A DNA stretch of 64,000 nucleotides, from assembly GCA_963715255.1 (NCBI GenBank), contig CAVQRN010000002.1, positions 49,185 to 113,184 of the forward strand, written 5' to 3'. The position numbers and the translations under genes were made by a program. How positions within the stretch are numbered: position 1 is the first letter of the stretch; every line of letters starts with the position of its first letter. The notes beneath the pieces were generated by a model that saw only the letters and a list, made by a program, of their open reading frames with translations, did not search any database and was not told the DNA's origin. The stretch is from an uncultured Actinomycetota bacterium. GTDB lineage: Bacteria > Actinomycetota > Acidimicrobiia > Spongiisociales > UBA5794. Shown here piece after piece: positions 1,827 through 55,125 of the stretch.

Positions 1827-3020
1827 ATGCGCATCGCCAATCGGATCGCCAACCTCGGAACCGAAACTGCCTTCGCGGTATCGGGCGAGGCCGCCGCATT
1901 CGCTGCCGAGGGGAATCGGGTCTACCCGTTCCACCTCGGCGACATCAACCTCCCAACCCCGTCGACCGTGGTCGAAGGAGCAACAAAGGCCATCGCAGAC
2001 GGCAAGACGGGCTACTGCCCGAACGCGGGGATCCCGCAGCTGCGCGAGGCGCTCGCTGCCGACGTCGCCGCGTCCCACAACACCGACTACACGGCTGAGA
2101 ACGTGGTCATGCAGCCCGGGGGGAAACCCACGATCGGCAAGTTCATCCTGACCATGATGAACCCGGGCGACGAAGTGCTCTATCCGAACCCCGGCTACCC
2201 GATCTACGAGTCCCAGATCGAGTTCAACGGCGGAGTCGCCGTCCCGTACGGGTACGTCGAAGGCACCGAGAACTTCGAGTTCGACTTCGACTCTATCGAG
2301 CGCGGTATCACCGACAAGACCCGCCTGTTGATCCTCAACGATCTCCAGAACCCGATGGGTGCCGAATGCTCGATCGAGGAGCATGAGAAACTCGCTGAAT
2401 TGGTCCGCAACCACAACCTGTATGTGCTCGCCGACGAGGCGTATTTCGACATGCGTTACTCGGGGAAGAGCACGTCGTTCGTCGAACAGCCGGGAATGGC
2501 AGAGCGCACCGTCGTGCTCTACACCTTCTCGAAGAAGTTCGCGATGACCGGATGGCGTCTGGGTGCGAGCATCGGTCCGAAAGAGATCGTCGATGTGATC
2601 GCCAAGATCAACGTCAACGACGAATCCTGCTCGAATCACTTCATCCAGTACGGCGCTCTCGCCGGACTCGAGGGTGACCAGAGTGAACCCCAGGCGATCC
2701 TCAACACACTCGAAGCACGGAGAGACGCAACCGCCAAAGGTCTGAACGCCATCGACGGGATCCACACCTTCACGCCGAACGCCACCTTCTACCTGTTCCC
2801 GAACGTCACCGAGTTGATGGCTCGCAAGGGCATGAGCAACTACGAGGAGTTCCGTCGCGCAGCACTCCACGCGACCGGGGTGTCGTTCACGTCACGGATC
2901 CACTTCGGCCGCGAACTCGAAGGCGAGCAGAACAAGTACATCCGTCTCGCCTACTCCGGTATCAACATCCCAGACATCGAAGAAGGCCTTGGTCTGCTGA
3001 AGGACTGGGCAGAGGCTTAG
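1827..3020 (+). CDS. PLP-dependent class I/II aminotransferase (aspartate aminotransferase-like)
   Basis: AAGGAG RBS upstream of the ATG at 1827. PLP-lysine motif SKKFAMTGWRLG. Typical N-terminal MRIANRIANLGTETAF. Confidence 0.85.
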   Translation: MRIANRIANLGTETAFAVSGEAAAFAAEGNRVYPFHLGDINLPTPSTVVEGATKAIADGKTGYCPNAGIPQLREALAADVAASHNTDYTAENVVMQPGGKPTIGKFILTMMNPGDEVLYPNPGYPIYESQIEFNGGVAVPYGYVEGTENFEFDFDSIERGITDKTRLLILNDLQNPMGAECSIEEHEKLAELVRNHNLYVLADEAYFDMRYSGKSTSFVEQPGMAERTVVLYTFSKKFAMTGWRLGASIGPKEIVDVIAKINVNDESCSNHFIQYGALAGLEGDQSEPQAILNTLEARRDATAKGLNAIDGIHTFTPNATFYLFPNVTELMARKGMSNYEEFRRAALHATGVSFTSRIHFGRELEGEQNKYIRLAYSGINIPDIEEGLGLLKDWAEA

Positions 3021-3021
3021 A

Positions 3022-3150
3022 AGTAGCTGAGTAGCTGAGTAACTGAGTAACCGAGTAGCTGAGCAACCGAGTAGCTGGGTTGCCGAGGAAGGTCGGGAAG
3101 CCTTCATTCTCCGCTACCCGGCTACTCGGCTACTCCGCTACCGGATTGCC
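3022..3150. repeat. tandem octamer repeat (GAGTAGCT/GAGTAACT/CGAGTAGC) followed by inverted copies (GCTACTCGGCTACTCCGCTACC); hairpin-forming intergenic element between convergent genes
   Basis: Direct copies lie at 3022-3080 and inverted copies at 3108-3148. The same family recurs at least 8 more times in the window. Confidence 0.8.
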
Positions 3151-3153
3151 GCG

Positions 3154-5404
3154 CTACCCAGCGAGAGCACTCAGATAGGCCTTGATCCGCCTCAGCTGTC
3201 CTTCACCGTCGAGCCCTGCTTCATGGACGACCATGTCGCCGGTGCCGGACCCGAGGTAGTGGCCCTTCTCGAAGGGATACATCGTGTGGGCGCGTCCCAG
3301 CTCGCTGTGAATCCACCGATACATGGTCGGCAGCGTGAACCCGGTGATACCCATCGCCTGCTGGGCCGATGCCTCCGGGAAGATCGCCCGTTGCTCGGCG
3401 ATCGAGAGTCTGTCGAACAGTTCGGCGGACGTGACCAGATAGACATCGAGGTCGATCCCCGCCTCTGCCAGCAGCGGCAAGGTCTGATCGACGAAGGCGT
3501 AGGCCACCGCAGAGCCCTGCAGTACCACGGCGGCGTCGGCCGTGCCGGCAGCAGCGCGGCAGCTTGTAGAACCCCTGCGCCGCCATGCCGGCGGCTGCCA
3601 ACCCGAGCGCATCGCGATCGGGAATCGTCTCGCCGGGACGGGTGACGAACGGGGCGATCAGCGCCGGACGGGCCTGGAATGCCGCTGCCACGAGCGGCCA
3701 CATCTCTGCCGGTTCCCAAGGCGTCAGGGTGATGCCCGTGCCCGGTACGAAATTCTCCTGCAACACCTGAAGCGCCTGCGGATCCGCGTGGGTGGGACCG
3801 TCCTCACCGGTCTTCACGCCCGCATGTGCACAGACGAGCACGAACGGCCGGTACGGACCCGGTTCGGTCTCCTGTCGCGCCTGGTTGCCGATCGCGTGGA
3901 GCCGCGCCGGGATGTGTCCCAACGGTGCGAGGAAAGCGGCATACGACGCCACGGCTCCCACATGGATGCCGAAGGCCGATGCTCCGGAGAGCACACACGA
4001 CAGTCCGTCCTCACAGATGCCTCCGACGGACAACGACCGTGCTTCCGGATTGGCCGTCCGATGGTAGAAGCCATCGGGGAATCCTGCCCCTACGTCTGAG
4101 ATCGCCGTCGACCCCAGCAAGTCGGCGGCCCCGATGAGGATCGCCCCGTCGGATTCCCGATTCAGATATCCCAGAACCCTGCCCAGTGCCTGTCGCAGCG
4201 CCAGCTTGTCACCTGGCTCCAACGCAAGTTCGCCCGGCACCGTCGCCGGATCCGCCGCCGCGAATATCCGTTCCACGTCCGGAACCCCGTCGCGGAGCTT
4301 CCTCCCCCGGGTCTCGAGACGATCCTTCGCGCGTGCGATACGGTCGGCCATGGCGGCCGTCATCTCATCGGACTCCAGCAGTGTTCGATACCGTTCCAGT
4401 GCGGCCCACTGCGCCGCTTCGACGGCGACCTCATCCGACGGGTCCGGCCTCTCCCAAGTATCGACGTCGTCACCGAACACGGGCCGCTGGGTGTCGAAGA
4501 ACTCCGGGCTGCACATGGCATGACCGCCACCGTGCGACTTCTTGCCCTCGATGCCGTACTGCCACCCCTTCGTCGTGCGATACACGATCGCGGTGGGCTG
4601 CCCGTTGTCCATCTCGGTCGCCATCCGCTGGGCGGTGAGCACCAACGCGAAGTCGAATCCGTCCGGGACGTAGATCACATTCCAGTCGTGCAGATAGAAC
4701 AACTCCTTCGGATCCCACTGCACGTAGTCGCCGGGTCGGTCGCCCTCGCGAGTCACCGCGTCCGAATCGATCGAGGACTGGTTCCAGTCGACATGCATCA
4801 CCGCATTCGACAGGCCCGCTGTGCCGGCGAACGCCACCGCCTCAACGACCCGCCCCGGAGTCAGCCCACCTTCGCCCTCGATCAGATGCACCCGGGGCGC
4901 GTCGGTGCCGTAGGCGTCGGCAGCCGCCACCGCCAGGCCGAGCGACGATCCAACCCCGATTCCCGATGCACCGGTTGACAGTTTCACGAAGGGCGTCGCA
5001 GGAGTCGGATGCCCATCCAGCGCTTTCGAGCCGAATCGCCGGAACAGAGGGGCCTGCCGGGCCGGATTGCGACGGAACCCGAGCAGATCCTCGAAGCGCA
5101 GCCGTAGATTCGCTTCGTCGGGTAGGAGTTCAGGCCGGGCGATTCGAGCGATCTCGTCGCGCAGGGCGAACATCGCGTACAGACCGAGCGCCTTGTGCCC
5201 GGCCGAGTACGAGATCAAGTCCTGATCCGTGCGGTTCGGATCGCCGATGTCGTAGTCCATGTCGTCGAACAACAACCCCGCCACGATGTGGCCAGACGAC
5301 ACCGAACCACCCGGGTGCCCGGACTGGGCGTAGTTGAACAGCACCGCACACAGCCCTCGGTACACATCGTCAAACCGCTTCAAGGCCGCCAGATCGTCCG
5401 GCAT
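3154..5404 (-). CDS. tkt: transketolase; apparent single-base frameshift near 3560-3600
   Basis: N-terminal SGHPGG TPP-binding motif about 25 aa after the start at 5404. The C-terminal third (VLQGSAVAYAFVDQ...) continues in a different frame (ORF 3154..3612). The upstream frame degenerates into R/G-rich junk after GFYKLP. Confidence 0.75.
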
Positions 5405-6098
5405 CGCTTCCGCCGGCTCTGACACCTCCACCCATGTTGCTCGTCGCGGTCCAAACGCTGGATTCGTGATCACTTCAACTCCTCAACTTGCTCGTTCGAT
5501 GGCGGTGCGCACTCGCCTCCTGGCGGTCTGTCCGATGCACTTCAGACAGCCTACTTGCTCGCCCGATGGTCGATTCCACGGACAGGTGCAGGGGGTCGGC
5601 CAACGTGTCCCATCCCCTAGTCCCGGACTTCCAAGCCTCCAGCTTCCTGCTCTGAGCCATGACGGGCGTCCTTGCCTCATCGCCATGATTCAGGCGCCCA
5701 GAGCCCCCCGGCCCTTCGGGCCACCTCCCCCATAGGCTCAATCCACGGTTGGTGACGTGGGAGAGACCACCCTTCTCCTGTCCCCCCGCCGGAACGGCCG
5801 AGGGACGCGAGGAGCTTGCGACGAGCAGGGGGCCACCAGCGAGTTCACACAAGCGCACTCGCATCCGATAGTGACGAGGCCAACACGGGCCCCCTCTGGC
5901 CTGCCGCCCATCTCCCCAACTGCGTGGAGGAGCGTGTCAGAAAGTCCCGTTCACCCCTTCACCCGGATCGTGACCATCGGCAACGTCTCGAATCCCGGCC
6001 CCACCATGAGACCCCGGCTGAGGCGGAGGAAGAGGCGCCGCCGGCGACCGGAAGCTGGCAACTGGAAGTGGTAGCCGGAATCCGGCTCGTCTCGTGAC

Positions 6099-10229: not shown

Positions 10230-10296
10230 TCGAGCTACGAGCTGCCGGCTACCGGCAGTCCCCACTCAGCTACTCAGCTACTCAGCTACTCAACCG
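10230..10296. repeat. octamer repeat array (GAGCTAC x2, CTACTCAG x3 plus a small palindrome CCGGCTACCGGCAG)
   Basis: The last repeat unit provides the TGA stop of the amidohydrolase gene. Confidence 0.75.
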
Positions 10297-21127: not shown

Positions 21128-21260
21128 TTCTCAACTCGCCGAAGACCCACCAGGACCCCACCAACCATCACAGCGCAAGAGAGCCGCGAGGCAGAAAAGG
21201 ACGAAGCACCACAACACGAGGTCGAGCCCGGGAAGGGCTCGACCGACGTCACGATCACGG

Positions 21261-21617: not shown

Positions 21618-21702
21618 CATTTCTGGGGAACACGCTTGGCGCGTTCATCACGCTCAAGAGTAGTCGTGCGATCCCGTCACCGCTTGCCCGTTTTCCCGCT
21701 AG

Positions 21703-22584: not shown

Positions 22585-22596
22585 GGGTCGGTCGTC

Positions 22597-23167
22597 GTGC
22601 GCTCCTCTTGGGACAATCGTTACCGGGAACGGTCGGCTCCGGTAGACCCTTCGGCGTTTGTCACCGTTGAACTCGCACCGCTTCTCGGCTCGCCCGGTCG
22701 GGCACTCGATCTCGCCGGAGGCGCAGGGAGACACGGCGTTTGGCTTGCGGAGCGTGGCTGGGAGACGACCATGATCGATACGTCGGAGGTCGCGATAGCA
22801 CTCGCCGCTGAGCGGGCAGGAGAGGCCGGCGTCGACGTCACACTCGTTCACAGCGACCTCACCGCCGCAACGCTCCCCGACGGCCCATGGGATCTCGTGC
22901 TCATCGTGCACTACCTCCAGAGAGACCTCTTCTCCCCGGCCATCGACACTCTGGCGGATGACGGCCTGATCGCGTTCCTCGGTCGCCACCGTTCGGAACC
23001 TGCAACGCCGGGAGCGACCATCCCTCCCCTACCTCCTCCAAGAGGGCGAGGCGCCGTCGCTCGTTGACGGTCTCCAGATCCTCCACTACGCCGAGGGCTG
23101 GTCGATCGAGGACCGGCACGAGGCAAGGGTGGTGGCCCGTAGACGGAGTAGCCGGGTAGCTGGGTAG
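22597..23167 (+). CDS. SAM-dependent methyltransferase, TehB-like; apparent frameshift near 22995-23030
   Basis: Class I MTase motif LDLAGGAGRHGVWLAERG. After ...LIAFLGRHRSEP the frame changes. The alternative frame gives a TehB-like C-terminus ...QEGEAPSLVDGLQILHYAEGWSIEDRHEARVVARRRSSRVAG*. Its last residues and TAG stop lie inside the octamer repeat. Confidence 0.6.
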
Positions 23168-23175
23168 CTGAGCAC
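23139..23175. repeat. octamer repeat array (GGAGTAGCCGGGTAGCTGGGTAGCTGAGC)
   Basis: Same family as 3022-3150. Encodes the C-terminal ...SRVAG* of the upstream gene. Confidence 0.7.
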
Positions 23176-23200
23176 GGACTCTGGCTGGAAGCCGGCGGCT

Positions 23201-23659: not shown

Positions 23660-23669
23660 GATCAGAAGC

Positions 23670-24866: not shown

Positions 24867-25750
24867 GTTCTCAAGTACTTGTGGACCGTGAGGCTCAGTC
24901 CGCTGCCGACGAGACCGGCAAGCACCCCGAACAGCAGGACCAGCGCTCCCTGCATGAAGAGGTAATCAGATTGAACGGCGACGTTGATCCAGTCCGGCAG
25001 GTCGGTGAGACGATCGACCGCTAGTTGTTGGGCAACGACGATGAAGCCCACGGCGAGACCAGCTCCCACAAATCCTTCGAGCGCGCCCTCGAGAAGGAAC
25101 GGTACCCGCACGAGCCAGTTCGATGCACCCACGAGTCGCATGATTTCAATCTCTTCGCGGCGCGTGTAGATGGCCATGTGAATCGTGTTGGCGATCAGCG
25201 CCACTGCGGCGACCCCGAGAGCAACCGCAAGGAGCCAGAACATCACGCGCAGTCCATCTCGAAGAGAGATCATCGCGTCAATCGCTTGCCCGGCGGACTG
25301 GACGCGTAAAAGCCCCGGCGTGGCCTGCAGGCGCGTCACGATCGTCTGGTAGTCATCCGGGTCAACGGGCTTGATCCGGAGCGAGGCAGGGACAATATCG
25401 GGGCTTTCTTCGATCACACGCAACGTGGCCGGCTGGTTCGAGAGCAGTACTCGAGCCTCTTCGAGGGCTTCAGCCTTTGAGACGAAGCTAACGCTCTCGA
25501 CTTCGTCCCAGCTCTCCATCTCGGCCTTCAGATCGTCGACCGCCGTGAGCGCGTCGTCACGCACGAACGCGATCACACGAACGTCTTCAGCCCATTGAAG
25601 GGTGTTGATTCGAACCACCTCGCCGAAGACGAGGGTCCCAAAGGTGAGCGTCAGAGAGATGAAGACGGCGAGAACAGCGCCCAACACGACCAGGCCGTTG
25701 GCCCCGATGTTCGCGAAGGCCTCTCGGAGGACGTACGAGACGCGGGTCAT
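24863..25750 (-). CDS. ftsX: cell division ABC transporter permease FtsX
   Basis: Four-TM FtsX topology with a large extracytoplasmic loop. Translationally coupled to ftsE. Confidence 0.85.
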
Positions 25751-26709
25751 CCGTTGACCTCCCCGTCGGCGTCGGGTTCTTCGCCCGAACCCTCGATGTC
25801 TGCGGTGGCGTCCTGCTCGTCCCGATCGTCGTATTCGATCGAATCACCGTCAACGCCCGTGGGCTCCTCCAGAGAACTCTGCTCATCAACCGACGAACCG
25901 GTGACCGTCGACTCTTCGAAATCGAGGGTCGAAATGACAGTATCTTCGGCAGTAGTAGCGGTGTCGGATTCGGCAACCACGTCCGTAATGATGAAAGGGG
26001 CATCTGCGCCACCGACATCCTCAACGATGGCCGCCTCGTAGAGGCCACGACTCTCGTCGCGAGTGATACGGCCACGATCGAGTTGGACGACCCTGCGTCG
26101 CATCGCAGTGACAATCGCGTGGGCGTGGGTCGCCATGACCACGGTGGTGCCCGTGCGGTTGATCCGATCGAGGATGCGCATGATCCCAACGGAAGTCGCG
26201 GGGTCCAGGTTCCCGGTCGGCTCATCGGCGAGAACGATGAGAGGTCGGTTCACGAATGCTCGGGCCACCGAGACTCGCTGTTGCTCACCACCGGAGAGTC
26301 GTCGCGGCAGGCGGTCGGCCATCTCGGAGAGACCGACGAGATTGAGGACTTGCGTAACCTGATTGTCGATCGCCGAGCGCGGTTTCCCCGTCACCTCCAT
26401 CGCAAATGCGACGTTCTCGTAGACCGTCTTGCTCGGGAGAAGCTTGAAATCTTGAAACACCGTCCCGATGGATCGACGAAGGTGAGGGATCTTCCATCCC
26501 GGTAGCTCCGACGCGTGTTTCCCGGCGACCCAAATGTCGCCGTTGGTCGGCTTCTCCTCTCGCATCATGAGGCGAATGAGCGTCGACTTTCCGGACCCCG
26601 AGGGGCCGACGAGAAAGACGAACTCACCCTTGTTGATGTCGAGATCGATGTCCTTGACGGCTACAACACCGCCGTCGTAGACCTTCGTCACATTATCGAG
26701 ACGGATCAT
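25747..26709 (-). CDS. ftsE: cell division ATP-binding protein FtsE with an unusual acidic C-terminal extension of about 90 aa
   Basis: Walker [10 protein letters not shown], signature LSGGEQQR, Walker B. Start [11 protein letters not shown] at 26709. The C-terminal 90 aa are D/E/T/S-rich ([24 protein letters not shown]). Confidence 0.85.
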
Positions 26710-26844
26710 GAAATCCCTATCGCGGCTTCGTAGTCCTACCCCACCCGCCAACGAGTCGCCAGGTTACCCGTAGACCCCGTATAGGAGGGGTATTGCGTGC
26801 GTGAAGAGCGGAGTGGGACAAGGGACTCGCGAGAGGTCTGGCGC

Positions 26845-26876
26845 CCTACTCGGCTACCGAGCTACCCAGCTACTTC
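26845..26876. repeat. octamer repeat array (CTACTCGG/CTACCGAG/CTACCCAG/CTACTTCC)
   Basis: Contains the prfB TAG stop and encodes its last residues ...EVAG*. Confidence 0.7.
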
Positions 26877-27969
26877 CCTCCGCCACTGCAGATAGCTGTC
26901 TATGAGGGCGTCCAGGTCTCCGTCGAGGACACCCTGGATGTTTCCTATCTCGCGGCCGGTACGAAGATCTTTGACCATCTGGTAGGGCTGGAGTACGTAG
27001 GAACGGATCTGGCGTCCCCAGCCGGCTTCGGTTTGGTCGCCGCGGATGGCGTCGACCTTCGCCTGCTGTTCGACACGGGCCCGATCCGCCAGTCGTGCGG
27101 CGAGGAGATGCATTGCCCTCACCCGGTTCTGGGTCTGAGACCGTTCGGCTTGACAACTGACAACGACACCGGTGGGCAGGTGCGTCAGCCTGACCGCCGA
27201 ATCCGTCTTGTTGATGTGCTGGCCGCCGGCACCCGACGCCCGGTATGTGTCGACCCTGAGATCCTCCGGGTTGATTTCGACCTCTTTGACGTCGACTTCC
27301 GGGATGACATCGACACCGGCGAATGCCGTGTGGCGACGAGCGGCCGAATCGAACGGACTGATCCGCACGAGCCGATGCACGCCGCGTTCGCTCTCGAAGA
27401 TTCCGTAGGCATGATCTCCCTTGATGGTGATCGTGGCCGACTTGATGCCCGCTTCCTCACCGACCTGGTACTCGTCCACTTCGAAGGAGAGCTCGGTTCG
27501 TTCGAGGTATCGCAGGTACATACGGAACAACATCTCCGCCCAATCCTGAGCATCGACGCCGCCGGCACCGGCATGAACCGACATGATTGCGGTCGAGTCG
27601 TCGTGAGGACCGAAGAAGAGCGTTTCGCGCTCGAGACGACTGAGCGTCGTTTCGGTTTCGCGCAGCTCCTTCATCGCGTCGTCGAGGCCCGAGGCATCGT
27701 CTTCTTCAAGGCCGAGTTCGATCAGCACCTCGGCGTCATCAAGTGCCTCGTCCAGGATCGCCACCTGCTCGATGGTACGTTCGTGCCGAGCGAGGGTTCG
27801 GGTCACCGCGAGTGCCCGATCCTGATCGTCCCATAAGCCAGGTTCGGAGACCTGCTGCCTCAGTTCGACGAGTGCCTGTTCTTTGCCTGCGACGTCAAAG
27901 GAACCTCCTGGCGTCGTCGAGCCGTGAGCGCAGGTCGTTCAGAAGTATGCGGAGGTCATTCGGTTCCAT
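26862..27969 (-). CDS. prfB: peptide chain release factor 2, expressed via programmed +1 ribosomal frameshift
   Basis: ORF0 (MEPNDLRILLNDLRSRLDDARRFL) ends at an in-frame UGA within CUU UGA C. The +1 frame continues DVAGKEQALVELRQQ... through SPF and GGQ motifs to 26862. Confidence 0.85.
27894..27900 (-). promoter_or_regulatory. RF2 autoregulatory +1 frameshift site CUU UGA C with an internal Shine-Dalgarno-like AGGAGG 3 nt upstream
   Basis: Read on the minus strand: GCC AGG AGG UUC CUU UGA CGU. This is the classic RF2 recoding cassette. Confidence 0.8.
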
Positions 27970-28215
27970 TGTGGGATGAGCGTACCCGTCGGCGGGTTGC
28001 TGCACTCCTTTCGGTCCAGATTCCTTGCTGTGAAGCTTCTTGAACCACCGTCGCCCAGATGTCCTCAATGTGCGTGCCATCATGGAGGGTTCGAACGACG
28101 ATTCCACTGCCATAACGTCGATGGGGCCGCCGATTCAGTCCAATAAGGGGATTGACGAAGTCTGCACCGTTGACCACCGTTCCCTTGCGTTCCGCGGAGT
28201 CGAACATGGCGCTGC

Positions 28216-30867: not shown

Positions 30868-30916
30868 GGCGGCGAATACTACGGGGGCCGTTGGCTTGTT
30901 GAGCGAGTGTGAGATG

Positions 30917-30950
30917 GCGGAGTAGCCGAGTAGCTGAGTAGCCGAGTGGT
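30917..30950. repeat. octamer repeat array (GGAGTAGCCGAGTAGCTGAGTAGCCGAGTGG)
   Basis: Same family. Located between the secA start and the upstream gene's stop. Confidence 0.7.
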
Positions 30951-30966
30951 CGAACGAAGTGTCGCG

Positions 30967-31320
30967 TCATGAGCGGACGTTGGCCTTCAGTCTCAGCAGC
31001 ATTCGCCTGATTGCGCCGACCTCGGCAAGATGATCATCGGCGACGCCACGGGGAACTGCTCCCAGATCTCTCGCCAGGAGGAGATGACTCTCAAGTTCAG
31101 CCGCGGAGCCGAGAGCGATCGTCAGGAACCTGCGGAACTCCCTCACCGACTCTCGTCCCGCTCCCTCTGCAATATTCGCGGGAATGGACATCGCTGCCCG
31201 TGTGATCTGATCGCCGAGGCCGAAGCGGTGGCGGCCACTCAACCCGTCGGCCGTCCGATGGATGTCGAGAGCAAGATGGTGAGCTCGTTGCCACACATCG
31301 AGTCTTCTGAAGTTCCGCAT
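30967..31320 (-). CDS. four-helix-bundle protein (the family often found inside 23S rRNA intervening sequences)
   Basis: MRNFRRLDVWQRAHHLALDIH...IAEGAGR signature. 117 aa from the start at 31320. Confidence 0.6.
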   Translation of the reverse strand: MRNFRRLDVWQRAHHLALDIHRTADGLSGRHRFGLGDQITRAAMSIPANIAEGAGRESVREFRRFLTIALGSAAELESHLLLARDLGAVPRGVADDHLAEVGAIRRMLLRLKANVRS

Positions 31321-31411
31321 TTCCCCGTCATACATGAAGAGAGCGGTGGGTTCTAGACGCTCGTGTGCCGGAGCTCGAACTGCCGGGATCACCGTCTACA
31401 AGCTGAGTCTT

Positions 31412-31447
31412 CCTCGGCTACTCGGCTACTCGGCTACTCAGCTAGTC
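31412..31447. repeat. octamer repeat array (CTCGGCTACTCGGCTACTCGGCTACTCAGCTAG)
   Basis: Directly abuts the TGA stop of the response-regulator gene. Confidence 0.7.
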
Positions 31448-32096
31448 AATCCAGACTGATCAGGTCTTCCCGTACCGCGTACAGGACTGCCTCGTTCCTG
31501 GAGTGGAAACCGAGTTTGTCGAGGATGTTCCTGATGTGGTTCTTCACCGTGTTCTCGGAGATGAACAGGTCCGTGCCGATCTCGCGGCTCGTCTGTCCCT
31601 GTGCCACGAGTCCAAGGACCTCGATCTCACGCCCGGTCAACACCGGCTTCCTCGATTGCAGCAGCTCCTGGTGGCGGAGCAACTGCCGGGTCACATCGAG
31701 GAGCTTTCCTGCCATGTTCGGGGAAATGGCAGCCCCGCCGTTCTCAACAGCGTTGAGGGCTCCGACCAGGGCGTCGAACGGGGCGTCCTTCGTGACGTAT
31801 CCGCGAGCCCCGGCTTTGATGCCAACGAGGAGGTCCTCCTCCGATTCGCTCGCAGTGAGCAGAATGACGTGCGCTCCCGGAGCGACGGCGCTGATCTTCT
31901 CGACGACCTCGAGGCCCGAGATGCCGGGCATCAGGATGTCGAGCAGGACCAGATCCGGTTGATACTCCTCGGCAGCGGAGACTGCCCCTTCTGCGTCGCC
32001 TGACTGGGCAATGACCTCGAATCCGGCGTCTTTCAGTGCTGATGCCAGTCCTGCTCTGAACAGCGGCACATCGTCAACAATGAGCAGTCTCTTCAT
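31446..32096 (-). CDS. two-component response regulator, NarL/LuxR family
   Basis: REC domain (DD...D...K) plus a C-terminal LuxR-type HTH (LTGREIEVLGLVAQGQTSREIG...SENTVKNH). Confidence 0.85.
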   Translation of the reverse strand: MKRLLIVDDVPLFRAGLASALKDAGFEVIAQSGDAEGAVSAAEEYQPDLVLLDILMPGISGLEVVEKISAVAPGAHVILLTASESEEDLLVGIKAGARGYVTKDAPFDALVGALNAVENGGAAISPNMAGKLLDVTRQLLRHQELLQSRKPVLTGREIEVLGLVAQGQTSREIGTDLFISENTVKNHIRNILDKLGFHSRNEAVLYAVREDLISLD

Positions 32097-32120
32097 CTCG
32101 ACTCAGTACTCCCGCTCGGC

Positions 32121-33385: not shown

Positions 33386-33471
33386 GCCCCCGACCGTAAA
33401 GGCAGAGTGGGACAGAATTCGTGAGATCAGATCGGTCACCGGCGAATGAGACCGGTGATCCGTTTTCAAAC

Positions 33472-33578
33472 AAGTAGCTGAGTAGCCGAGCAACCGAGTC
33501 GTCGCACGAGACTGATCCCGACAGGCAAGGTCCCCGAGTGGTCTCTGCTACTCCGCTACTCCGCTACTCCGCTACTCG
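33472..33578. repeat. octamer repeat: direct copies (33472-33510) and inverted copies CTACTCCG x3 (33546-33578), forming a long hairpin
   Basis: Directly abuts the TGA stop of ahcY. Confidence 0.75.
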
Positions 33579-33579
33579 A

Positions 33580-34827
33580 TCACGTTCCTTCTTCCCACGA
33601 TGTCAGGTAGCGGGCTTGTTCTTCTGTCAATGTCTCCAGTGACGCGCCCATTGCTTTGAGCTTGAGCCGAGCGACGGACTCGTCGAGCTCACGGGGCAGC
33701 GTGTACACATCGGGTGGGAGATCGCCGCCTACTTGGACAAGCCACTCTGCGGCGAGCGCCTGGTCGGCGAACGACATGTCCATCACATCGGCGGGGTGGC
33801 CCTCGGCTGCGCCCAGATTCACCAGCCGTCCCTCAGCCACGACGATGATTCGGCGCCCATCGTCCAGTTCGAACTCCTCGAGATTCTCCCTGATCTCGCG
33901 ACGAGCAACCGCCATCTGGCGAAGCCCGACCAGATCAAGTTCCACATCGAAGTGCCCGGCGTTCGCGATGAGAACGTTGTCCTTCATCACCAGGAAGTGC
34001 TCGGGTCGGAAGACGTGGATGCCGCCCGTCACCGTGAGGAAGACATCTCCAACCGGAGCCGCCTCGGCCGCCGTCATCACCCGGTAACCCTCCATCGCCG
34101 CCGAGAGTGCCCGAATCGGGTCGACCTCGACCACGACAACACTTGCCCCGAGGCCTGATGCACGGCGGGCGATACCCCATCCACAGTCACCGAAACCTGC
34201 GACGACCACGGTACGTCCGGCGAACAGGATATTCGAAGCCCTGAGAATCCCGTCGAGCGACGACTGTCCGGTTCCGTGCCGGTTGTCGAACAGATGTTTC
34301 GTTTCGGAGTCGTTCACGGCCACAACCGGGTAGCGAAGGACCCCCTCGGCGGCCATCGCTCGGAGGCGCAGCACGCCGGTGGTCGTCTCCTCGAGGCCTC
34401 CGAGGATCGGTTGCAGCTTCCGTTCACGATGCAGAACGGTCGTGGTGTCTGCCCCATCGTCGAACACGATGTGCGGCTCGGTGTCGAGGATTGCGTTGAT
34501 GTGTCGGTAGAAGGTATCGGGATCCTCACCGCGCACTGCGTACACGGGGATGCCGTCATCAACGAGCGCCGCAGCCACGTCATCCTGGGTCGAAAGAGGG
34601 TTCGAAGCGCACAGGGCCACCGATGCCCCACCGACGCGCAGCGTTTGCATCAGCGTCGCAGTCTCGGTCGTTACGTGCATGCAGGCAGCGACCCGGATAC
34701 CCTCCAGCGGTCGTTCGGCCTCGAACCGTTCCCGGATCGCAGCAAGGACCGGCATTCTGCGGTCGGCCCACGCGATTCGCCGATGCCCTTCGAATGCGAG
34801 TGACGAATCAGCGATGTCATAGTTCAT
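33580..34827 (-). CDS. ahcY: adenosylhomocysteinase
   Basis: Start MNYDIADSS. NAD-binding GFGDCGWG region and typical AdoHcyase substrate-domain motifs. Confidence 0.9.
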   Translation of the reverse strand: MNYDIADSSLAFEGHRRIAWADRRMPVLAAIRERFEAERPLEGIRVAACMHVTTETATLMQTLRVGGASVALCASNPLSTQDDVAAALVDDGIPVYAVRGEDPDTFYRHINAILDTEPHIVFDDGADTTTVLHRERKLQPILGGLEETTTGVLRLRAMAAEGVLRYPVVAVNDSETKHLFDNRHGTGQSSLDGILRASNILFAGRTVVVAGFGDCGWGIARRASGLGASVVVVEVDPIRALSAAMEGYRVMTAAEAAPVGDVFLTVTGGIHVFRPEHFLVMKDNVLIANAGHFDVELDLVGLRQMAVARREIRENLEEFELDDGRRIIVVAEGRLVNLGAAEGHPADVMDMSFADQALAAEWLVQVGGDLPPDVYTLPRELDESVARLKLKAMGASLETLTEEQARYLTSWEEGT

Positions 34828-41026: not shown

Positions 41027-41040
41027 GGGGTGAAGAGTAG

Positions 41041-41090
41041 CGCAGTAGAGCAGTAGCAGGCAACGCAGTACTGATCTACTGATCTACTGC
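41041..41090. repeat. variant repeat array: GCAGTAGA/GCAGTAGC direct copies followed by inverted CTACTGAT x2
   Basis: Related to the GAGTAGCY family. Supplies the TAG stop and last residues (...EAVDQ*) of the 94-aa gene. Confidence 0.6.
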
Positions 41091-41360
41091 TTCCGGCAGA
41101 TCTTCGAGCTTCCCGAGGTAGCGGGATCGTCGCTTCCCATCCTCGGTCCAGTATGCATACCAGTAGGGACCGTGGGGGCACCGGGTGCAGTTGTCTTTCC
41201 CGCATCGGACCATCTGTTTCCGCAGCTTGACCTCGGGCCCCGACCCCGGCAGATCCACACCGCGTCCCTCGAGGCGAGCCTTGGCAAGAATGTAGAGCCG
41301 GCGCAACCCGTGTTCGTCCATTTCTCGCACTGCCTCGAGAACGTCCCTGTCGATCGACAC
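41076..41360 (-). CDS. hypothetical protein (94 aa) with a CxxC...CxH motif
   Basis: Clean ORF. CGKDNCTRCPHGPYWYAYW. Confidence 0.4.
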   Translation of the reverse strand: MSIDRDVLEAVREMDEHGLRRLYILAKARLEGRGVDLPGSGPEVKLRKQMVRCGKDNCTRCPHGPYWYAYWTEDGKRRSRYLGKLEDLPEAVDQ

Positions 41361-46281: not shown

Positions 46282-47230
46282 TCAAGGACCGAACTCGGAA
46301 TATTCCAATCCTTTCGCCGTTCTCCTGACCGGCGGCGTCGGTGGAGCGCGCGCTGCACGGTCGCTCAACCGGGTCTTTGCCGGTGGGCGGCTCACGGTGG
46401 TCGGCAACGTAGGCGATGACGAGCTGATCCACGGCGTCCACGTGTCGGCTGATCTCGACACGGTCCTCTACACACTTGCCGGTATCGAGGGCCCTCACGG
46501 TTGGGGTATCGCTGGGGACTCGTTCACCGTGATGGATCACCTGGAGACGCTCGGCGTCGACACAACCTTCCGCCTCGGTGATCGTGATCTGGCGACGTGT
46601 CTGTTCCGAACCGGGTTGCTCGCGTCGGGGAACAGGCTCTCGGACATCACAGAGCAGATCCGGCTGGCGCTCGGTGTCGAGACACGGATCCTGCCCGCCA
46701 CCGATGACCCGGTCCGAACCAGAGTTCGAATCGCCGACGGAAGCTGGCTCCCGTTCCAGGAGTACTTCGTCGCTCGGGGGCACCGTGACCACGTCCTAGA
46801 AGTGGAATACACCGGTGCCGAGCGTGCACTACCCGGCCCGGGGGTTGTCGAGGCCATCGCTGCAGCCGATGTCGTCGTGATCGCCCCATCGAATCCGCCC
46901 CTGTCGATCGGACCGATCATCGCCGTTCCGGAGATTCGCCGGGCCATCGCCGACAAGGAACGGGTCGTCGCCATCAGCCCTCTCTTCGGGGGCAAGGCGC
47001 TCAAGGGCCCGGCGGAGCGGGTGTTGGCGTCTCTCGGATTCCCGCCAGGGAACGCCGGAGTGTTGGCATCCTACGAGGGCCTCATCTCCGACGTCGTGGT
47101 CGACATCGGAGACGCAACTGACGTGCGAAAGCTGTCCACGTCGGTCATGATTCACGCCACCAACACCCGCCTCGGCACCGAGGACGAGGCCCGCCGGTTT
47201 GCCGAATGGTTCCAGGAGGCGTTCGCATGA
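46268..47230 (+). CDS. cofD: 2-phospho-L-lactate transferase (F420 biosynthesis)
   Basis: VLLTGGVGGAR N-terminal motif, CofD/UPF0052 fold. Followed by cofE with a 4-bp overlap. Confidence 0.85.
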   Translation: MNQAIQGPNSEYSNPFAVLLTGGVGGARAARSLNRVFAGGRLTVVGNVGDDELIHGVHVSADLDTVLYTLAGIEGPHGWGIAGDSFTVMDHLETLGVDTTFRLGDRDLATCLFRTGLLASGNRLSDITEQIRLALGVETRILPATDDPVRTRVRIADGSWLPFQEYFVARGHRDHVLEVEYTGAERALPGPGVVEAIAAADVVVIAPSNPPLSIGPIIAVPEIRRAIADKERVVAISPLFGGKALKGPAERVLASLGFPPGNAGVLASYEGLISDVVVDIGDATDVRKLSTSVMIHATNTRLGTEDEARRFAEWFQEAFA

Positions 47231-47922
47231 GCATCGAGATCCACGCGATTCGCGGAATCCCCGAGGTCGCCCCCGGCGACGACCTGGCGACGCTCATCGT
47301 CCATGGACTCGAGTCATCGCAGATCGCGCTGTCTGACCGTGACATCGTCGTCATCACGCACAAGGTGGTGTCGAAAGCCGAAGGCCGGATCGAACCCGCC
47401 CCCGATGACCGCGCCTACCGGGAACTGGCCGAACGCGAGGCCCGATCGATCCTGCGACGACGCGGCGATCTCCTCATCGCACAGACCGAACACGGGTTCA
47501 TCTGCGCGAACGCGGGCGTCGATCGCTCCAACGTGGCAGACGGATGGGCGGTCCTCCTCCCCGTCGATCCGGACCGATCGGCGCATCGGATTCGGCTCCG
47601 TATCGAACGATTGACGGGCGTCTCGATCGCCGTCGTCATCACGGATACGTTCGGTCGCCCGTGGCGACGCGGGCTCGTCGATGTCGCCATCGGCATCTCA
47701 GGACTGCCATCGATCCTCGACCTGCGCGGTCAATCCGATGCACACGGACGCACAATGAGCGTTACGGAGATCGCCATCGTCGATGAGATCGCTGCAGCCG
47801 CCGACCTTGTCATGGGCAAGGCCGACGAGATCCCGGTCGCCGTTGTGCGGGGCCTCGATCTGACCGGGGATGGACGAGCAACCGACCTGGTGAGACCCCC
47901 GGATGAAGACATGTTCCGGTGA
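47227..47922 (+). CDS. cofE: coenzyme F420-0:L-glutamate ligase (CofE domain only)
   Basis: CofE family signature (VVITHKVVSKAEGR...ICANAGVDRSN). No fused nitroreductase domain. Confidence 0.8.
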   Translation: MSIEIHAIRGIPEVAPGDDLATLIVHGLESSQIALSDRDIVVITHKVVSKAEGRIEPAPDDRAYRELAEREARSILRRRGDLLIAQTEHGFICANAGVDRSNVADGWAVLLPVDPDRSAHRIRLRIERLTGVSIAVVITDTFGRPWRRGLVDVAIGISGLPSILDLRGQSDAHGRTMSVTEIAIVDEIAAAADLVMGKADEIPVAVVRGLDLTGDGRATDLVRPPDEDMFR

Positions 47923-53332: not shown

Positions 53333-55078
53333 GTGAAATCCGTTCTCATCGCGAACCGGGGCGAGATCGCCGTCCGCGTGATTCGCGCCGCTCACGATCT
53401 CGGTCTCCGTGCGATCGCCATCTACTCCGAATTGGACAGAGACGCCGTCCACGTCGACCTTGCCGATGAGGCGTGGAACGTCGGTCCGGCCCCATCGTCC
53501 AAGTCCTACCTCAATGTCGATCGGATTCTGGAAATCGCCCGCGAGTCAAGGGCCGATGCCATCCACCCCGGATACGGATTCCTCGCAGAGAATGCGGCCT
53601 TCGCCAGAGCGGTCACCGACGCAGGTCTGACGTGGGTCGGCCCCCCACCCGAGGCGATCGCCACCATGGGCGACAAGATCGCGTCCCGCGTCGCTGCCGT
53701 CAAGGCCGGTGTGGCCGCGGTTCCAGGGACGACCGAGCCACTCACGGATGTCTCCCAGGTCAAGGCCTTCGCAGACGAGCATGGTCTGCCGATCGCCATC
53801 AAGGCAGCCCACGGAGGAGGAGGCAAGGGACTCAAGGTTGTTCGTGAGAGCGGTGACCTCGATTCCGCTTACGAAGGGGCCCGGCGCGAGGCCGAAGCGT
53901 GGTTTGCCAATCCCGAGGTCTACGTCGAACGCTACCTCGACACGCCACGCCACATCGAAGCCCAGGTGATGTTCGATACTCACGGCAACGGTGTGTTCCT
54001 TGGCGAACGAGACTGCTCCCTCCAACGACGCCACCAGAAACTCATCGAAGAGACCCCTGCTCCGGGATTCTCCGACGGGCAGCGGGCCGAGCTCGGGCGA
54101 GCTGCCCTTGCCGTTGCGCGTGCCGCCGGATACGTGAATGCCGGCACGGTCGAGTTCCTGCTCGACACGAACGGTGACCTGTTCTTCCTCGAGATGAATA
54201 CGAGGATCCAGGTTGAGCACACGATCACAGAAGAAACAACCGGTGTCGATCTCGTCGTGGAACAGTTGCGCGTCGCCGCCGGTGAGATCCTCTCGTTCGA
54301 TTCGGTCGAACGGACCGGTCACGCGATCGAATTCCGGATCAACGCAGAGGACCCGTCCAATGGCTTCCTCCCCACACCAGGCAAGCTCTCGGCATACCGT
54401 GAACCGGCAGGACCCGGGATCCGCGTCGACAGCGGCGTCCGTCAGGGTTCGCGTATCTCCCAGTACTACGACAACCTCATCGCCAAACTCGTCGTCCGCG
54501 GGCGGGATCGTGAAGAAGCGATCCGCAGATCGATCCGGGCGCTGACCGAGTTCAAGATCGAAGGCGTTGAGACGACGATCCCCGCACACCTGGAGATTCT
54601 CCGGGGTCCCGACTTCGCCGCGGGCAACATCCACACCCGTCTCGTGGAAGATTCGATGGACTTCAGCCGGCTCGGCACGAAGACCTCACCTGCGATGCCG
54701 GAAGACGAGGAACTCCAGGAGCGTGAGATCACCGTCGAGGTGAGCGGTCGACGTTTCGAGGTCAAGTACTGGTCGCAGGTCATCGCATCGACGGGGTCGG
54801 GACAGCGCCCCGCGCCGCGACGCAAGGCACCGAAGCTCAGCAAGGAGCAGTCGGCCGGTGCCGGCGAGGGCATCGTGACATCGCCGATGCAGGGCACGAT
54901 CGTGAAGGTTCACCACTCGGCCGGTGACACCGTACACGCCGGCGATCCGGTGTGCGTGCTGGAAGCGATGAAGATGGAGAATGAGATCAAAGCGCCGACC
55001 GACGGTGACATCGTGGATCTCCGAGTCCGGCCGGGCGACACGGTGAGCACGGGCGCGGTGCTGATGGTGATCAGGTAG
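53333..55078 (+). CDS. acyl-CoA carboxylase alpha subunit (biotin carboxylase plus biotin carboxyl carrier domain)
   Basis: ATP-grasp biotin carboxylase motifs. C-terminal biotinyl-Lys motif EAMKMEN. Confidence 0.9.
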   Translation: MKSVLIANRGEIAVRVIRAAHDLGLRAIAIYSELDRDAVHVDLADEAWNVGPAPSSKSYLNVDRILEIARESRADAIHPGYGFLAENAAFARAVTDAGLTWVGPPPEAIATMGDKIASRVAAVKAGVAAVPGTTEPLTDVSQVKAFADEHGLPIAIKAAHGGGGKGLKVVRESGDLDSAYEGARREAEAWFANPEVYVERYLDTPRHIEAQVMFDTHGNGVFLGERDCSLQRRHQKLIEETPAPGFSDGQRAELGRAALAVARAAGYVNAGTVEFLLDTNGDLFFLEMNTRIQVEHTITEETTGVDLVVEQLRVAAGEILSFDSVERTGHAIEFRINAEDPSNGFLPTPGKLSAYREPAGPGIRVDSGVRQGSRISQYYDNLIAKLVVRGRDREEAIRRSIRALTEFKIEGVETTIPAHLEILRGPDFAAGNIHTRLVEDSMDFSRLGTKTSPAMPEDEELQEREITVEVSGRRFEVKYWSQVIASTGSGQRPAPRRKAPKLSKEQSAGAGEGIVTSPMQGTIVKVHHSAGDTVHAGDPVCVLEAMKMENEIKAPTDGDIVDLRVRPGDTVSTGAVLMVIR

Positions 55079-55122
55079 CCGAGTAGCCGAGTAGCCGAGC
55101 AGCTGAGCAGCTGAGCAGCTGG
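55079..55122. repeat. octamer repeat array (GTAGCCGA x3, GCAGCTGA x3) filling the whole 47-bp gap between convergent genes
   Basis: The first unit contains the TAG stop of the carboxylase alpha gene. Confidence 0.75.
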
Positions 55123-55125
55123 GTG

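What the first reader, a model, noticed from the sequence alone, without database searches (positions are those of the whole stretch)
26845..26876. The repeat arrays donate stop codons and the last residues of several proteins
The prfB ORF ends ...REVAG* with both the VAG codons and the TAG inside the repeat (GAAGTAGCTGGGTAG on the sense strand). The TehB-like methyltransferase ends ...SRVAG* the same way at 23139-23167. The stops of the acyl-CoA carboxylase alpha gene (55076-55078), the amidohydrolase (10290-10292) and the 94-aa ORF (41076-41078) sit inside a repeat unit. The ahcY (33580-33582) and response-regulator (31446-31448) stops sit at the array edge. So the element has been inserted into, or expanded at, the very ends of coding sequences and remodels their C-termini.
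Basis: seen in the sequence. Interest (0 to 1): 0.7.

Follow-up and report, generated by a model that had tools for sequence, protein, structure and literature searches.

The report
Stop-bearing octamer repeats at gene ends
In this uncultured Acidimicrobiia genome, fast-changing 8-base tandem repeats that carry a TAG stop begin exactly at the ends of genes; they have rewritten the last few residues of three proteins with variable tails and left conserved protein ends untouched.

Summary
Octamer arrays (consensus GTAGCYGR, TAG every 8 nt) sit at the 3' ends of about 10 of about 50 genes.

Ortholog comparison shows real tail remodelling for three proteins:
- RF2: REVAG in the window against RAAAK in a strain about 99% identical in DNA over this 10.2-kb stretch. 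About 75 nt, comprising the array and the last four codons, were replaced.
- Methyltransferase: K* became RVAG*, a gain of 3 aa.
- DUF6788 protein: VDQ* here. A 91% relative has no array and only a 15-nt spacer.

Four proteins keep the ancestral C-terminus: ACC alpha, the amidohydrolase, AhcY and the response regulator (whose last residue differs, D against S). There the array starts at the stop codon. In two of them (amidohydrolase, AhcY) the stop changed from TAG in relatives to TGA.

The recurring tails are the in-frame reading of the unit: GTA GCY GRG TAG gives V-A-G/E-stop, and GTA GAT CAG TAG gives V-D-Q-stop.

Relatives carry heptamer arrays with unrelated units at the same gene ends. 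Paired arrays fold into long hairpins. The structure is kept while unit sequence and period turn over. This is a stop-bearing octamer variant of the long-unit tandem repeats described next to stop codons in Xanthomonas and Nostoc. Tail remodelling looks like a tolerated by-product. Function is inferred, not shown.

The parts
26846..26876 (-). Octamer array at the prfB end. The sense strand reads GTAGCTGG GTAGCTCG GTAGCCGA GTAGGGCG. Codons V-A-G occupy 26865-26873 and the stop TAG occupies 26862-26864. It is a single array with no inverted partner.
   Evidence: Sequence. The single array does not fold better than shuffles (z +0.66). The region is replaced wholesale in strain L081.
23139..23172 (+). 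Octamer array at the end of the SAM-methyltransferase: GTAGACGG AGTAGCCG GGTAGCTG GGTAGCTG AG. The last codons R-V-A-G and the stop (23165-23167) are array-encoded. The codons R-S-S (CGG AGT AGC) are ancestral coding sequence.
   Evidence: The array is identical in L081, where the gene is intact.
55075..55124 (+). Octamer array that fills the 47-nt gap between the convergent ACC alpha gene (stop TAG 55076-55078, the first unit) and the methylmalonyl-CoA mutase gene (stop at 55126-55128). It reads (GTAGCCGA)x3 then (GCAGCTGA)x3.
   Evidence: The ACC tail is unchanged against orthologs. Unit turnover is seen against the 99.5% strain L173. A heptamer hairpin occupies the same site in L171.
10261..10292 (-). 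Octamer array (TGAGTAGC)x3 that begins with the amidohydrolase stop TGA (10290-10292).
   Evidence: The tail ...ARLVG is shared with L090 to L092, whose stop is TAG.
41036..41092 (.). Inverted pair of octamer arrays forming a hairpin between the DUF6788 gene and the next small gene on the same strand. The gene-proximal arm (41068-41092, - strand) reads GTAGATCA GTAGATCA GTACTG and encodes V-D-Q plus the stop (41076-41078).
   Evidence: The fold has z -3.3. The orthologous site is empty in L172.
33473..33582 (.). Inverted pair of octamer arrays (33542-33579 on the - strand, 33473-33499 on the + strand) forming a hairpin immediately after the ahcY stop TGA (33580-33582).
   Evidence: The fold gives -57.4 kcal/mol, z -4.2. 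Relatives have heptamer hairpins at this site.
30917..31448 (.). Two complementary octamer arrays about 460 nt apart. One (31410-31448, - strand) begins at the response-regulator stop TGA (31446-31448). The other is at 30917-30947 (+ strand). Together they enclose a 23S_rRNA_IVP-family gene (30967-31392, - strand).
   Evidence: The arm duplex gives -57.3 kcal/mol, z -10. L081 has the same layout; L170 has it with heptamer units.
3018..3156 (.). Inverted pair of octamer arrays (3021-3077 on the + strand, 3109-3142 on the - strand, plus an in-register unit at 3149-3156). They fill the gap between the convergent aminotransferase gene (stop 3018-3020) and the transketolase-like gene (stop 3154-3156, tail ...SALAG*).
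   Evidence: The fold gives -66.9 kcal/mol, z -5.7. The aminotransferase tail is unchanged against L092. Homologs confirm where the TK-like protein ends.

Best explanation
**What it is.** These are rapidly evolving long-unit tandem repeats: 8 nt in this lineage and 7 nt in its relatives. They occupy the short spacers after genes. Most come as two inverted arrays that fold into a long, regularly mismatched hairpin. The most likely role of the hairpin is a U-tract-less transcript 3'-end structure, either a terminator or a protection element. That role is inferred, not shown.

**How it changes.** The arrays gain, lose and exchange units. They probably do so by replication slippage, and by unequal or microhomology-mediated recombination between units and unit-like coding sequence. 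This mechanism is inferred. It pushes them against the coding boundary.

**Why tails are sometimes rewritten.** In this lineage the unit GTAGCYGR carries TAG, and often TGA as well. The TAG-bearing strand always faces the gene, and the 8-nt period visits all three reading frames. An array that runs over the native stop therefore ends translation within at most three units. What happens next depends on the tail:
- Conserved tail (ACC alpha biotinyl domain, AhcY, amidohydrolase): selection holds the array exactly at the stop codon.
- Variable tail (RF2, methyltransferase, DUF6788): the array has fused in frame. The tail then becomes the reading of the unit: GTA GCY GRG TAG gives V-A-G/E-stop, GTA GAT CAG TAG gives V-D-Q-stop, and AGT AGC CGG GTA GCT GGG TAG gives S-S-R-V-A-G-stop.

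Tail remodelling is thus a tolerated side effect, not a function.
For: **Shown**
- Non-random period-8 TAG arrays: 9 against 0 at other spacings.
- At 9 of 10 array-bearing gene ends the stop lies within the array or 0-4 nt from it.
- The TAG strand faces the gene in all 10 cases: 6 inverted pairs (four in the window, plus the prfB-end pairs of L081 and L170) and the window's 4 single arrays.
- Tails changed for RF2, the methyltransferase and DUF6788. Tails unchanged for ACC alpha, the amidohydrolase, AhcY, the response regulator and the aminotransferase.
- The changed tails are the variable ones. RF2 has 59 different tails among 119 homologs, and DUF6788 tails run from 2 to 34 residues after the PE motif. 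ACC alpha is nearly invariant.
- Arrays are mutation hotspots between strains that are 99.2-99.5% identical over the compared stretches. 43 of 92 differences lie in about 110 bp at the prfB end. 4 of 53 lie in the 53-bp ACC array, where about 0.24 is expected.
- The orthologous gene ends in relatives carry heptamer arrays with unrelated units (GAGACAY, CAAGACR, TGAGCNN/GCTCACA, CCAGCTA/GGAAGCT). These start 0-15 nt after the stop.
- Paired arrays fold with z from -2.1 to -5.7 (seven of the eight folded at -3.1 or below) whatever the unit. Arms 460 nt apart stay complementary in two lineages that use different units.
- Canonical terminators with a stem and a U-tract are not above chance here: 10 found, 10.3 expected.

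**Precedent**
The GGGAATC heptamer repeats of Xanthomonas occur singly or as convergent inverted pairs, mostly within 50 bp of the stop on the coding strand. Some overlap the ORF (PMC4692102).
Against: - No transcript or protein data exist, so the hairpin role (termination or stability) is inference from position and predicted folding.
- Four of the window's arrays are single and do not fold better than shuffles, with z from about +0.7 to -1.8. A hairpin role cannot cover all of them.
- The hairpin at 41036-41092 sits inside what looks like an operon, which fits poorly with a simple terminator.
- The slippage and recombination mechanism is assumed, not observed.
- The same unit family recurs at many loci, and slippage alone does not explain that.
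- For RF2 the direction is not fully resolved. The VA[EG] tails in L082, L174 and L170 come with only 2-3 units, so the coding tail could have seeded the array rather than the reverse.
- The sample is one 64-kb window plus a few relatives. The contrast between conserved and variable tails rests on about eight genes.
Confidence: 0.6

Rival explanations
1. Reverse causality. The gene ends came first. Ancestral C-terminal codons such as Val-Ala (GTA GCN) or Ser-Ser (AGT AGC) next to a TAG stop already formed a short 8-nt direct repeat (GTAGCNGRGTAG). That repeat then expanded downstream by slippage. On this view the array is derived from the coding tail and no residues were donated.
For: - L082 ends EVAE* as GAAGTAGCTGAGTAG with only two units. 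L174 and L170 have 2-3 units after GVAE* and SVAE*.
- The GGAGTAGC inside the methyltransferase coding sequence is shared with L083, which has no octamer array.
- The Val codon where the DUF6788 tail joins the array is present in the closest orthologs, which read PEAV....
Against: - The same unit family sits after genes whose tails have no such seed: ACC alpha, the amidohydrolase, AhcY and the response regulator.
- The nearest outgroups of the window and L081 have RF2 tails A[AE]AK, so EVAG is derived in the window.
- The methyltransferase residues RVAG and the DUF6788 residues DQ are absent from orthologs.
- Seeding by microhomology is compatible with the best explanation and is in fact part of it.
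Confidence: 0.15
2. Adaptive all-frame stop module. The arrays are selected because they place TAG or TGA in all three frames directly after genes, and so catch ribosomes that read through or shift frame. On this view the new tails are part of a designed gene end.
For: - The TAG strand faces the gene in 10 of 10 cases.
- An 8-nt period closes all three frames within three units, or within two units for GTAGCTGA.
- The arrays begin exactly at the stop codon.
Against: - Relatives have stop-free units (GAGACAY, CAAGACR, CCAGCTA) at the same gene ends.
- About 40 of roughly 50 genes in the window have no array.
- The second arm and the long-range pairing serve no purpose in this model.
- The orientation bias is equally explained by selection against stop-free read-in.
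Confidence: 0.1
3. Mobile element. The arrays are miniature transposable or otherwise copy-pasted elements that target stop codons and bring their own stop.
For: - One unit family occurs at about 10 loci.
- The pair of unit types GTAGAGCA and GTAGATCA occurs both at the window's DUF6788 end and at the L081 prfB end.
- The DUF6788 site is filled in the window and empty in L172.
- The prfB array was replaced wholesale between near-identical strains.
Against: - No target-site duplication appears in the filled-versus-empty comparison, and the loops share no sequence.
- Unit number and type vary continuously, as expected for in-place turnover.
- No transposase-family domain turned up among the roughly 20 window ORFs put through Pfam, but most ORFs were not scanned.
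- Relatives have different units and a different period at the same sites, which fits local evolution better than insertion.
Confidence: 0.07
4. Coincidence. The overlap between stops, tails and repeats is chance codon usage in a GC-rich genome.
For: - Ala at position -2 of RF2 is common among orthologs. Tails ending in AG occur without arrays, for example RRAG and TEAG.
Against: - The arrays score 9 against 0 at period 8.
- Three proteins end with the same 9 nt, GCTGGGTAG.
- VA[EG] tails occur in only 4 of 120 RF2 homologs, and all three checked have octamer units.
- Strain differences concentrate in the arrays.
Confidence: 0.03

Closest known systems
Long-unit (heptamer) simple sequence repeats of Xanthomonas (GGGAATC) and Nostoc (GGGGAYT), Rehm et al. 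2015, PMC4692102
   Same: Both are head-to-tail arrays of a unit whose length is not a multiple of three, and typical arrays have a few units. Both lie in intergenic regions between co-directional or convergent genes and are rare between divergent genes. [quoted passage not shown] Both occur as single arrays or convergent inverted pairs able to form stem-loops. Lengths differ between related genomes.
   Different: The units here are not G-tract or quadruplex-forming. The period is 8 in this lineage and 7 in relatives. The unit carries TAG or TGA in a fixed orientation towards the gene. At orthologous sites the unit sequence, and even the period, are replaced completely between relatives. That paper does not describe C-terminal remodelling by the repeat: a search of its text for 'C-termin' found nothing.
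REP/BIME elements of enterobacteria (from my own knowledge, not tested here)
   Same: Both are abundant structured repeats just downstream of stop codons. Both often occur as inverted pairs that form hairpins, and REP/BIME hairpins protect upstream mRNA from 3' exonucleases. As I recall it, REPs very close to a stop codon can interfere with translation termination.
   Different: A REP is a 20-40-nt imperfect palindrome that is conserved genome-wide and is linked to RAYT transposases. Here each arm is a tandem array of 7-8-nt units, a single arm is not palindromic, and the unit sequence is not conserved among close relatives.
TAACTGA heptamer direct repeats of Beggiatoaceae, Cyanobacteria and Bacteroidetes (MacGregor 2015, PMC4679880), and cyanobacterial STRR heptamers
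   Same: Both are short tandem intergenic repeats with a unit that is not a multiple of three. The TAACTGA unit contains stop codons (TAA and TGA). Both occur at many loci per genome and have an unknown mechanism of spread.
   Different: TAACTGA repeats lie mostly a few nucleotides upstream of start codons and almost never as inverted pairs (169 direct sets against one indirect). The arrays here lie at 3' ends and are mostly inverted pairs.
U-tract-less hairpin terminators reported for high-GC Actinobacteria (from my own knowledge)
   Same: Both are stable GC-rich stem-loops directly after stop codons without a following U-run. Canonical terminators are not above chance in this window.
   Different: The stems here are built from tandem 7-8-nt units with one mismatch per unit. 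Termination activity is untested.

Membership tests
Long-unit SSR arrays near stop codons (Xanthomonas/Nostoc type, PMC4692102) | Head-to-tail tandem copies of a 6-9-nt unit, usually about 3-7 copies | tested here: met
   The window has 8-nt units in 2.6-7 copies. Relatives have 7-nt units.
Long-unit SSR arrays near stop codons (Xanthomonas/Nostoc type, PMC4692102) | [quoted passage not shown] | tested here: met
   At 9 of 10 array-bearing gene ends the stop is inside the array or within 4 nt of it.
Long-unit SSR arrays near stop codons (Xanthomonas/Nostoc type, PMC4692102) | Occur singly or as convergent inverted pairs | tested here: met
   The window has four inverted pairs and four single arrays.
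Long-unit SSR arrays near stop codons (Xanthomonas/Nostoc type, PMC4692102) | G-rich unit able to form a G-quadruplex | tested here: not met
   The units GTAGCYGR, GTAGATCA and GAGCAGCT contain no run of three or more G.
REP/BIME | The unit is itself a 20-40-nt imperfect palindrome | tested here: not met
   Single arrays do not fold better than shuffles, with z from +1.0 to -1.8. Hairpins need two separate arrays.
REP/BIME | Association with a RAYT (IS200/IS605-like) transposase in the genome | not tested
   Only 64 kb was available. No transposase-family domain appeared among the roughly 20 ORFs scanned, but the whole genome was not searched.
Canonical intrinsic terminator | GC-rich stem-loop | tested here: met
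   Paired arrays give -27 to -67 kcal/mol, z -3.3 to -5.7.
Canonical intrinsic terminator | U-tract directly after the stem | tested here: not met
   No array site appears among the terminator-like matches, and the total is at chance (10 found, 10.3 expected).
MITE (miniature inverted-repeat transposable element) | Terminal inverted repeats flanked by a target-site duplication, with identical copies at several loci | tested here: not met
   The filled site (window) against the empty site (L172) at the DUF6788 end shows no duplication. Loops differ between loci that share unit types.
Mycobacterial MIRU-type intergenic repeats (from my own knowledge) | Tandem 40-100-bp units whose small ORFs overlap the stop and start codons of flanking genes | tested here: not met
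   The unit here is 7-8 nt, not 40-100 bp. The only shared feature is overlap with stop codons.

The most novel reading that the evidence does not exclude
The arrays might not be passive microsatellites. They could be a maintained gene-end module that combines an all-frame stop with a hairpin, in which a dedicated process keeps the two arms complementary while it rewrites the unit. Candidates for that process are templated arm-to-arm copying and a repeat-synthesising enzyme. Such a process would make the 3' boundary of genes, and therefore protein C-termini, a programmed hypervariable zone in this Acidimicrobiia clade. The repeat stem that encloses a 23S-IVS-family gene would be the same device acting as an RNA-processing stem.
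Probability: 0.12. Interest if true: 0.75.

Novelty: new variant of a known kind. Interest (0 to 1): 0.45.

Why it matters
- The window gives a clear natural example of non-coding repeat dynamics setting where a protein ends. Selection holds the repeat at the stop codon of conserved tails and lets it overwrite dispensable ones. The resulting residues (VAG, VAE, VDQ) can be predicted from the repeat unit.
- There is a practical consequence for annotation. In this clade, C-terminal residues and stop positions of some genes are strain-specific repeat read-outs and should not be used as phylogenetic or functional signal.
- The wider pattern was not found in the literature searches I ran. Close relatives build hairpins from tandem 7- or 8-nt units at the same gene ends, keeping the structure while sequence and period change completely. 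That is an unusually clean case of structural conservation with total sequence turnover.
- It also offers a route to studying transcript 3'-end formation in a phylum-level group that has no genetics.

Tried and rejected
- **Genome-collection scan with RF2.** The best species representative is only 69% identical, and none of the 80 loci has TAG arrays at period 8, apart from one chance hit. This was useful only to show that the arrays are lineage-restricted.
- **A mistake of my own.** I first described the relatives' repeats as octamers. The autocorrelation scan showed they are heptamers, and I corrected this.
- **Rfam.** Only the tmRNA matched. No known RNA family covers the arrays.
- **Canonical terminator scan.** Matches were at chance and none fell at an array.
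- **Literature searches for octamer or heptamer repeats in Acidimicrobiia or Actinobacteria.** Nothing specific turned up. The searches did yield the Xanthomonas/Nostoc and TAACTGA precedents. A search for REP elements and trans-translation gave no usable source, so that comparison rests on my own knowledge.
- **Representative-protein search for the transketolase-like C-terminus.** Homologs are at most 58-63% identical and have variable tails of similar length. Whether ...LAG* was remodelled stays open.
- **Horizontal import of the window's RF2 tail and array from an L082-like lineage.** Rejected, because nothing beyond the units themselves is similar.
- **CRISPR-like arrays, Chi- or KOPS-type octamers, and suppressor or recoding signals.** I considered these and dropped them. 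There are no spacers, the copies are tandem, and the tails end at ordinary stops.

Full report
**1. What is in the sequence**

The window has 63% G+C. Its RF2 places it in an uncultured Acidimicrobiia lineage whose best species-level genome representative is only 69% identical. It carries short tandem arrays of an octamer with consensus GTAGCYGR. TAG recurs at exactly 8-nt spacing three or more times at nine places, and never at spacings of 6, 7, 9, 10, 11 or 12 nt. TRF and an autocorrelation scan find the same arrays.

- prfB ends GAA GTA GCT GGG TAG. V-A-G is the first unit and the stop lies in the second.
- The methyltransferase ends AGT AGC CGG GTA GCT GGG TAG, with the stop in the fourth unit.
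- The ACC alpha stop is the TAG of the first unit.
- The amidohydrolase stop TGA is the start of (TGAGTAGC)x3.
- The 94-aa DUF6788 ORF ends GTA GAT CAG TAG inside (GTAGATCA)n.
- The ahcY and response-regulator stops (both TGA) lie at the array edge.

I found one more case. The transketolase-like gene ends ...SALAG* with its TAG at 3154-3156, in register with array 3109-3142. Three proteins therefore end in the same nine bases, GCTGGGTAG.

The arrays are also present in two independently assembled strains, L081 and L173, so they are not assembly artefacts.

**2.

*RF2.* Among 120 close homologs the tail after the conserved WRR is four residues long in 79 of the 119 with a recognisable WRR-type motif, as in the window. 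It is highly variable, with 59 different tails. Only four homologs end in VA[EG]. The three whose DNA I could read end GTAGCTGAGTAG (L082), GTAGCGGAGTAGCGGAG (L174) and GTAGCGGAGTAGCC followed by an inverted CTAC array (L170). All three therefore carry the octamer unit.

The strongest evidence comes from strain L081. It is 99.2% identical to the window over 10.2 kb, yet its RF2 ends RAAAK* and is followed by a different array: (GTAGAGCA)x3 plus an inverted CTACTGAT arm. 43 of the 92 differing alignment columns fall in about 110 bp at this stop codon. The next outgroups, at 92-93% identity, end AEAK or EEAK, so the window's EVAG is the derived state.

*Methyltransferase.* The window and L081 end ...RRSSRVAG*, L083 ends ...KRSSK* and L086 ends ...RRRAG*. 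The DNA matches L083 up to CGGAGTAGC and then diverges, and the window is 9 nt longer. The window copy has a private 1-nt insertion upstream. The L081 copy is intact with the same tail.

*DUF6788.* No homolog ends VDQ, and the closest end PEAVGPA or PEALGTA. The 91% relative L172 has no array and only 15 nt before the next gene. The window has a 57-nt repeat hairpin there.

*Unchanged tails.*
- ACC alpha ends ...VLMVIR, which matches essentially all orthologs.
- The amidohydrolase ends ...ARLVG, as in L090 to L092.
- AhcY ends ...SWEEGT, as in L083 and L086; L088 ends ...AWEQGT at the same length.
- The response regulator changes only its last residue, S to D.
- The aminotransferase ends WAEA against WAEN in the relative.

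In the amidohydrolase and AhcY the stop is TGA in the window but TAG in relatives. So for the amidohydrolase the array supplies the stop, whose TGA is the first three bases of the first unit, without changing the protein. The AhcY stop lies 4 nt before the first unit. The transketolase-like tail could not be judged, because homologs are too distant.

**3. Why the same tails recur**

An array of GTAGCYGR can meet a reading frame in only three ways.
- Frame A reads GTA GCY GRG TAG, which gives V-A-E/G-stop. RF2 is the example. With unit GTAGATCA the same frame gives V-D-Q-stop, as in DUF6788.
- Frame B reads xxG TAG, an immediate stop. ACC alpha and the transketolase-like gene are examples.
- Frame C reads xGT AGC YGR and then runs into frame A, which gives S-R-V-A-G-stop. 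The methyltransferase is the example.

The tails are therefore a direct read-out of the unit.

The junctions lie at coding sequence that already resembled a unit. GGAGTAGC is shared with array-free L083, and the DUF6788 Val codon is shared with orthologs. This suggests in-register fusion by microhomology. That is an inference.

**4. What the arrays are**

At the same gene ends the relatives carry tandem repeats of a different period and an unrelated sequence:
- GAGACAY heptamers: L086 after ahcY, L083 after the methyltransferase.
- CAAGACR heptamers: L088 after ahcY.
- TGAGCNN paired with GCTCACA: L083 after ahcY and prfB, L091 after the amidohydrolase.
- CCAGCTA paired with GGAAGCT: L171 after ACC alpha.

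These start 0-15 nt after the stop. In the window four sites are inverted pairs, and the first array is always the TAG-bearing one.

Paired arrays fold into long hairpins with one mismatch per unit. The window's pairs give z of -5.7, -4.2 and -3.3, and the relatives' give -2.1 to -5.7. Single arrays do not fold better than shuffles.

Two arrays 460 nt apart enclose a 23S_rRNA_IVP-family gene. They are strongly complementary both in the window (octamers) and in L170 (heptamers), with z of about -10 and -9. The structure is therefore kept while unit sequence and period are replaced.

The arrays are also hotspots between strains 99.2-99.5% identical over the compared stretches. Canonical terminators with a stem and a U-run are not above chance in 19.5 kb, and none coincides with an array.

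**5. Most likely mechanism**

*Shown:*
- The arrays abut or include stop codons.
- The TAG strand faces the gene in all 10 cases: 6 pairs (four in the window, plus the prfB-end pairs of L081 and L170) and the window's 4 single arrays.
- Intrusion into coding sequence is seen only where the tail is variable among orthologs.
- Conserved tails are respected to the base.

*Inferred:* The arrays grow and exchange units by slippage and unequal or microhomology-mediated recombination, until purifying selection on the protein stops them. The unit carries stops and an 8-nt period visits all three frames, so running over the native stop costs only a few residues. The paired arrays probably act as hairpins at transcript 3' ends, in termination or protection.

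The orientation bias can be explained either by selection against read-in through a stop-free CTAC arm or by nucleation at TAG stops. I cannot separate these two.

**6. Comparison with what is known**

The nearest described system is the heptamer repeats of Xanthomonas (GGGAATC) and Nostoc. They form single arrays or convergent inverted pairs, mostly within 50 bp of the stop on the coding strand. Some overlap the ORF, and lengths differ between species (PMC4692102). That family is defined partly by G-quadruplex potential, which these units lack.

TAACTGA heptamers also contain stops but lie upstream of start codons and are almost never inverted (PMC4679880). REP/BIME elements, MITEs, MIRUs and canonical terminators each fail at least one defining feature (see the membership table).

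My searches found no description of such arrays in Acidimicrobiia.

**7. Verdict**

The arrays do donate stops and, in three proteins, one to four terminal residues. In most genes they stop exactly at the ancestral protein end, and the remodelling looks like a tolerated by-product rather than a function.

The finding as stated is of moderate interest. The underlying repeat system, with stop-bearing octamers and conserved hairpins despite complete unit turnover, is the more notable result. It is a new variant of a known kind.

Noticed in passing
window 30912-31450; L170 1920-2405; L081 30-565: A 23S_rRNA_IVP-family (PF05635) gene sits between the response-regulator gene and secA. It is enclosed by two strongly complementary repeat arrays about 460 nt apart (duplex -57 kcal/mol, z -10). 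L170 has a 46%-identical homolog at the same site, enclosed by complementary heptamer arrays (CGAGTCR; -63 kcal/mol). Relatives L083, L086 and L088 carry other genes or nothing there. The layout recalls the stem of rRNA intervening sequences.
   Followed up: partly
window 27894-27909 (- strand): prfB has the classic programmed +1 frameshift site, AGGAGG TTC CTT TGA C. A short ORF0 (MEPNDLRILLNDLRSRLDDARRFL) lies upstream of the 314-aa ORF.
   Followed up: partly
window 21104-21285: The last 24 nt of the tmRNA gene (21261-21618, - strand) are duplicated, at 21104-21127 and 21262-21285. The roughly 134 bp between the copies is absent from strain L081. This looks like the scar of an element that integrated at the tmRNA 3' end. 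Identity to L081 drops from 99.2% to 95.8% beyond this point.
   Followed up: partly
window ~22976 and 3221-3612: Two genes are split by frameshifts. The methyltransferase has a 1-nt insertion (TTCC against TTC in L081, L083 and L086) that is private to the window. The transketolase-like gene switches frame between ORFs 3221..5473 and 3154..3612. These may be assembly indels or recent pseudogenisation.
   Followed up: partly
window 47933-47955: A heptamer array, (GCAAGCA)x3.3, lies just after the stop of gene 47206..47922, between convergent genes. The window therefore also carries the 7-nt type that dominates in relatives.
   Followed up: no
window 27806-28216; L082, L083, L086, L088, L170: A 674-714-aa Abhydrolase_9 gene lies between secA and prfB in all the more distant relatives (it is split into two calls in L086). 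It is missing from the window and from L081.
   Followed up: no
window 55072-55124 vs L173 5565-5615: Strain L173 is 99.5% identical over 10.8 kb and has the same array length at the ACC alpha end. One unit type is swapped, however, which is equivalent to losing one CAGCTGAG unit and gaining one GAGCTGAG unit. 4 of the 53 differences fall in these 53 bp.
   Followed up: yes
window 22500-42000: Canonical intrinsic terminators (a stem followed by a U-run) are no more frequent than in shuffled sequence: 10 found against 10.3 expected. This genome probably ends transcripts in some other way.
   Followed up: partly
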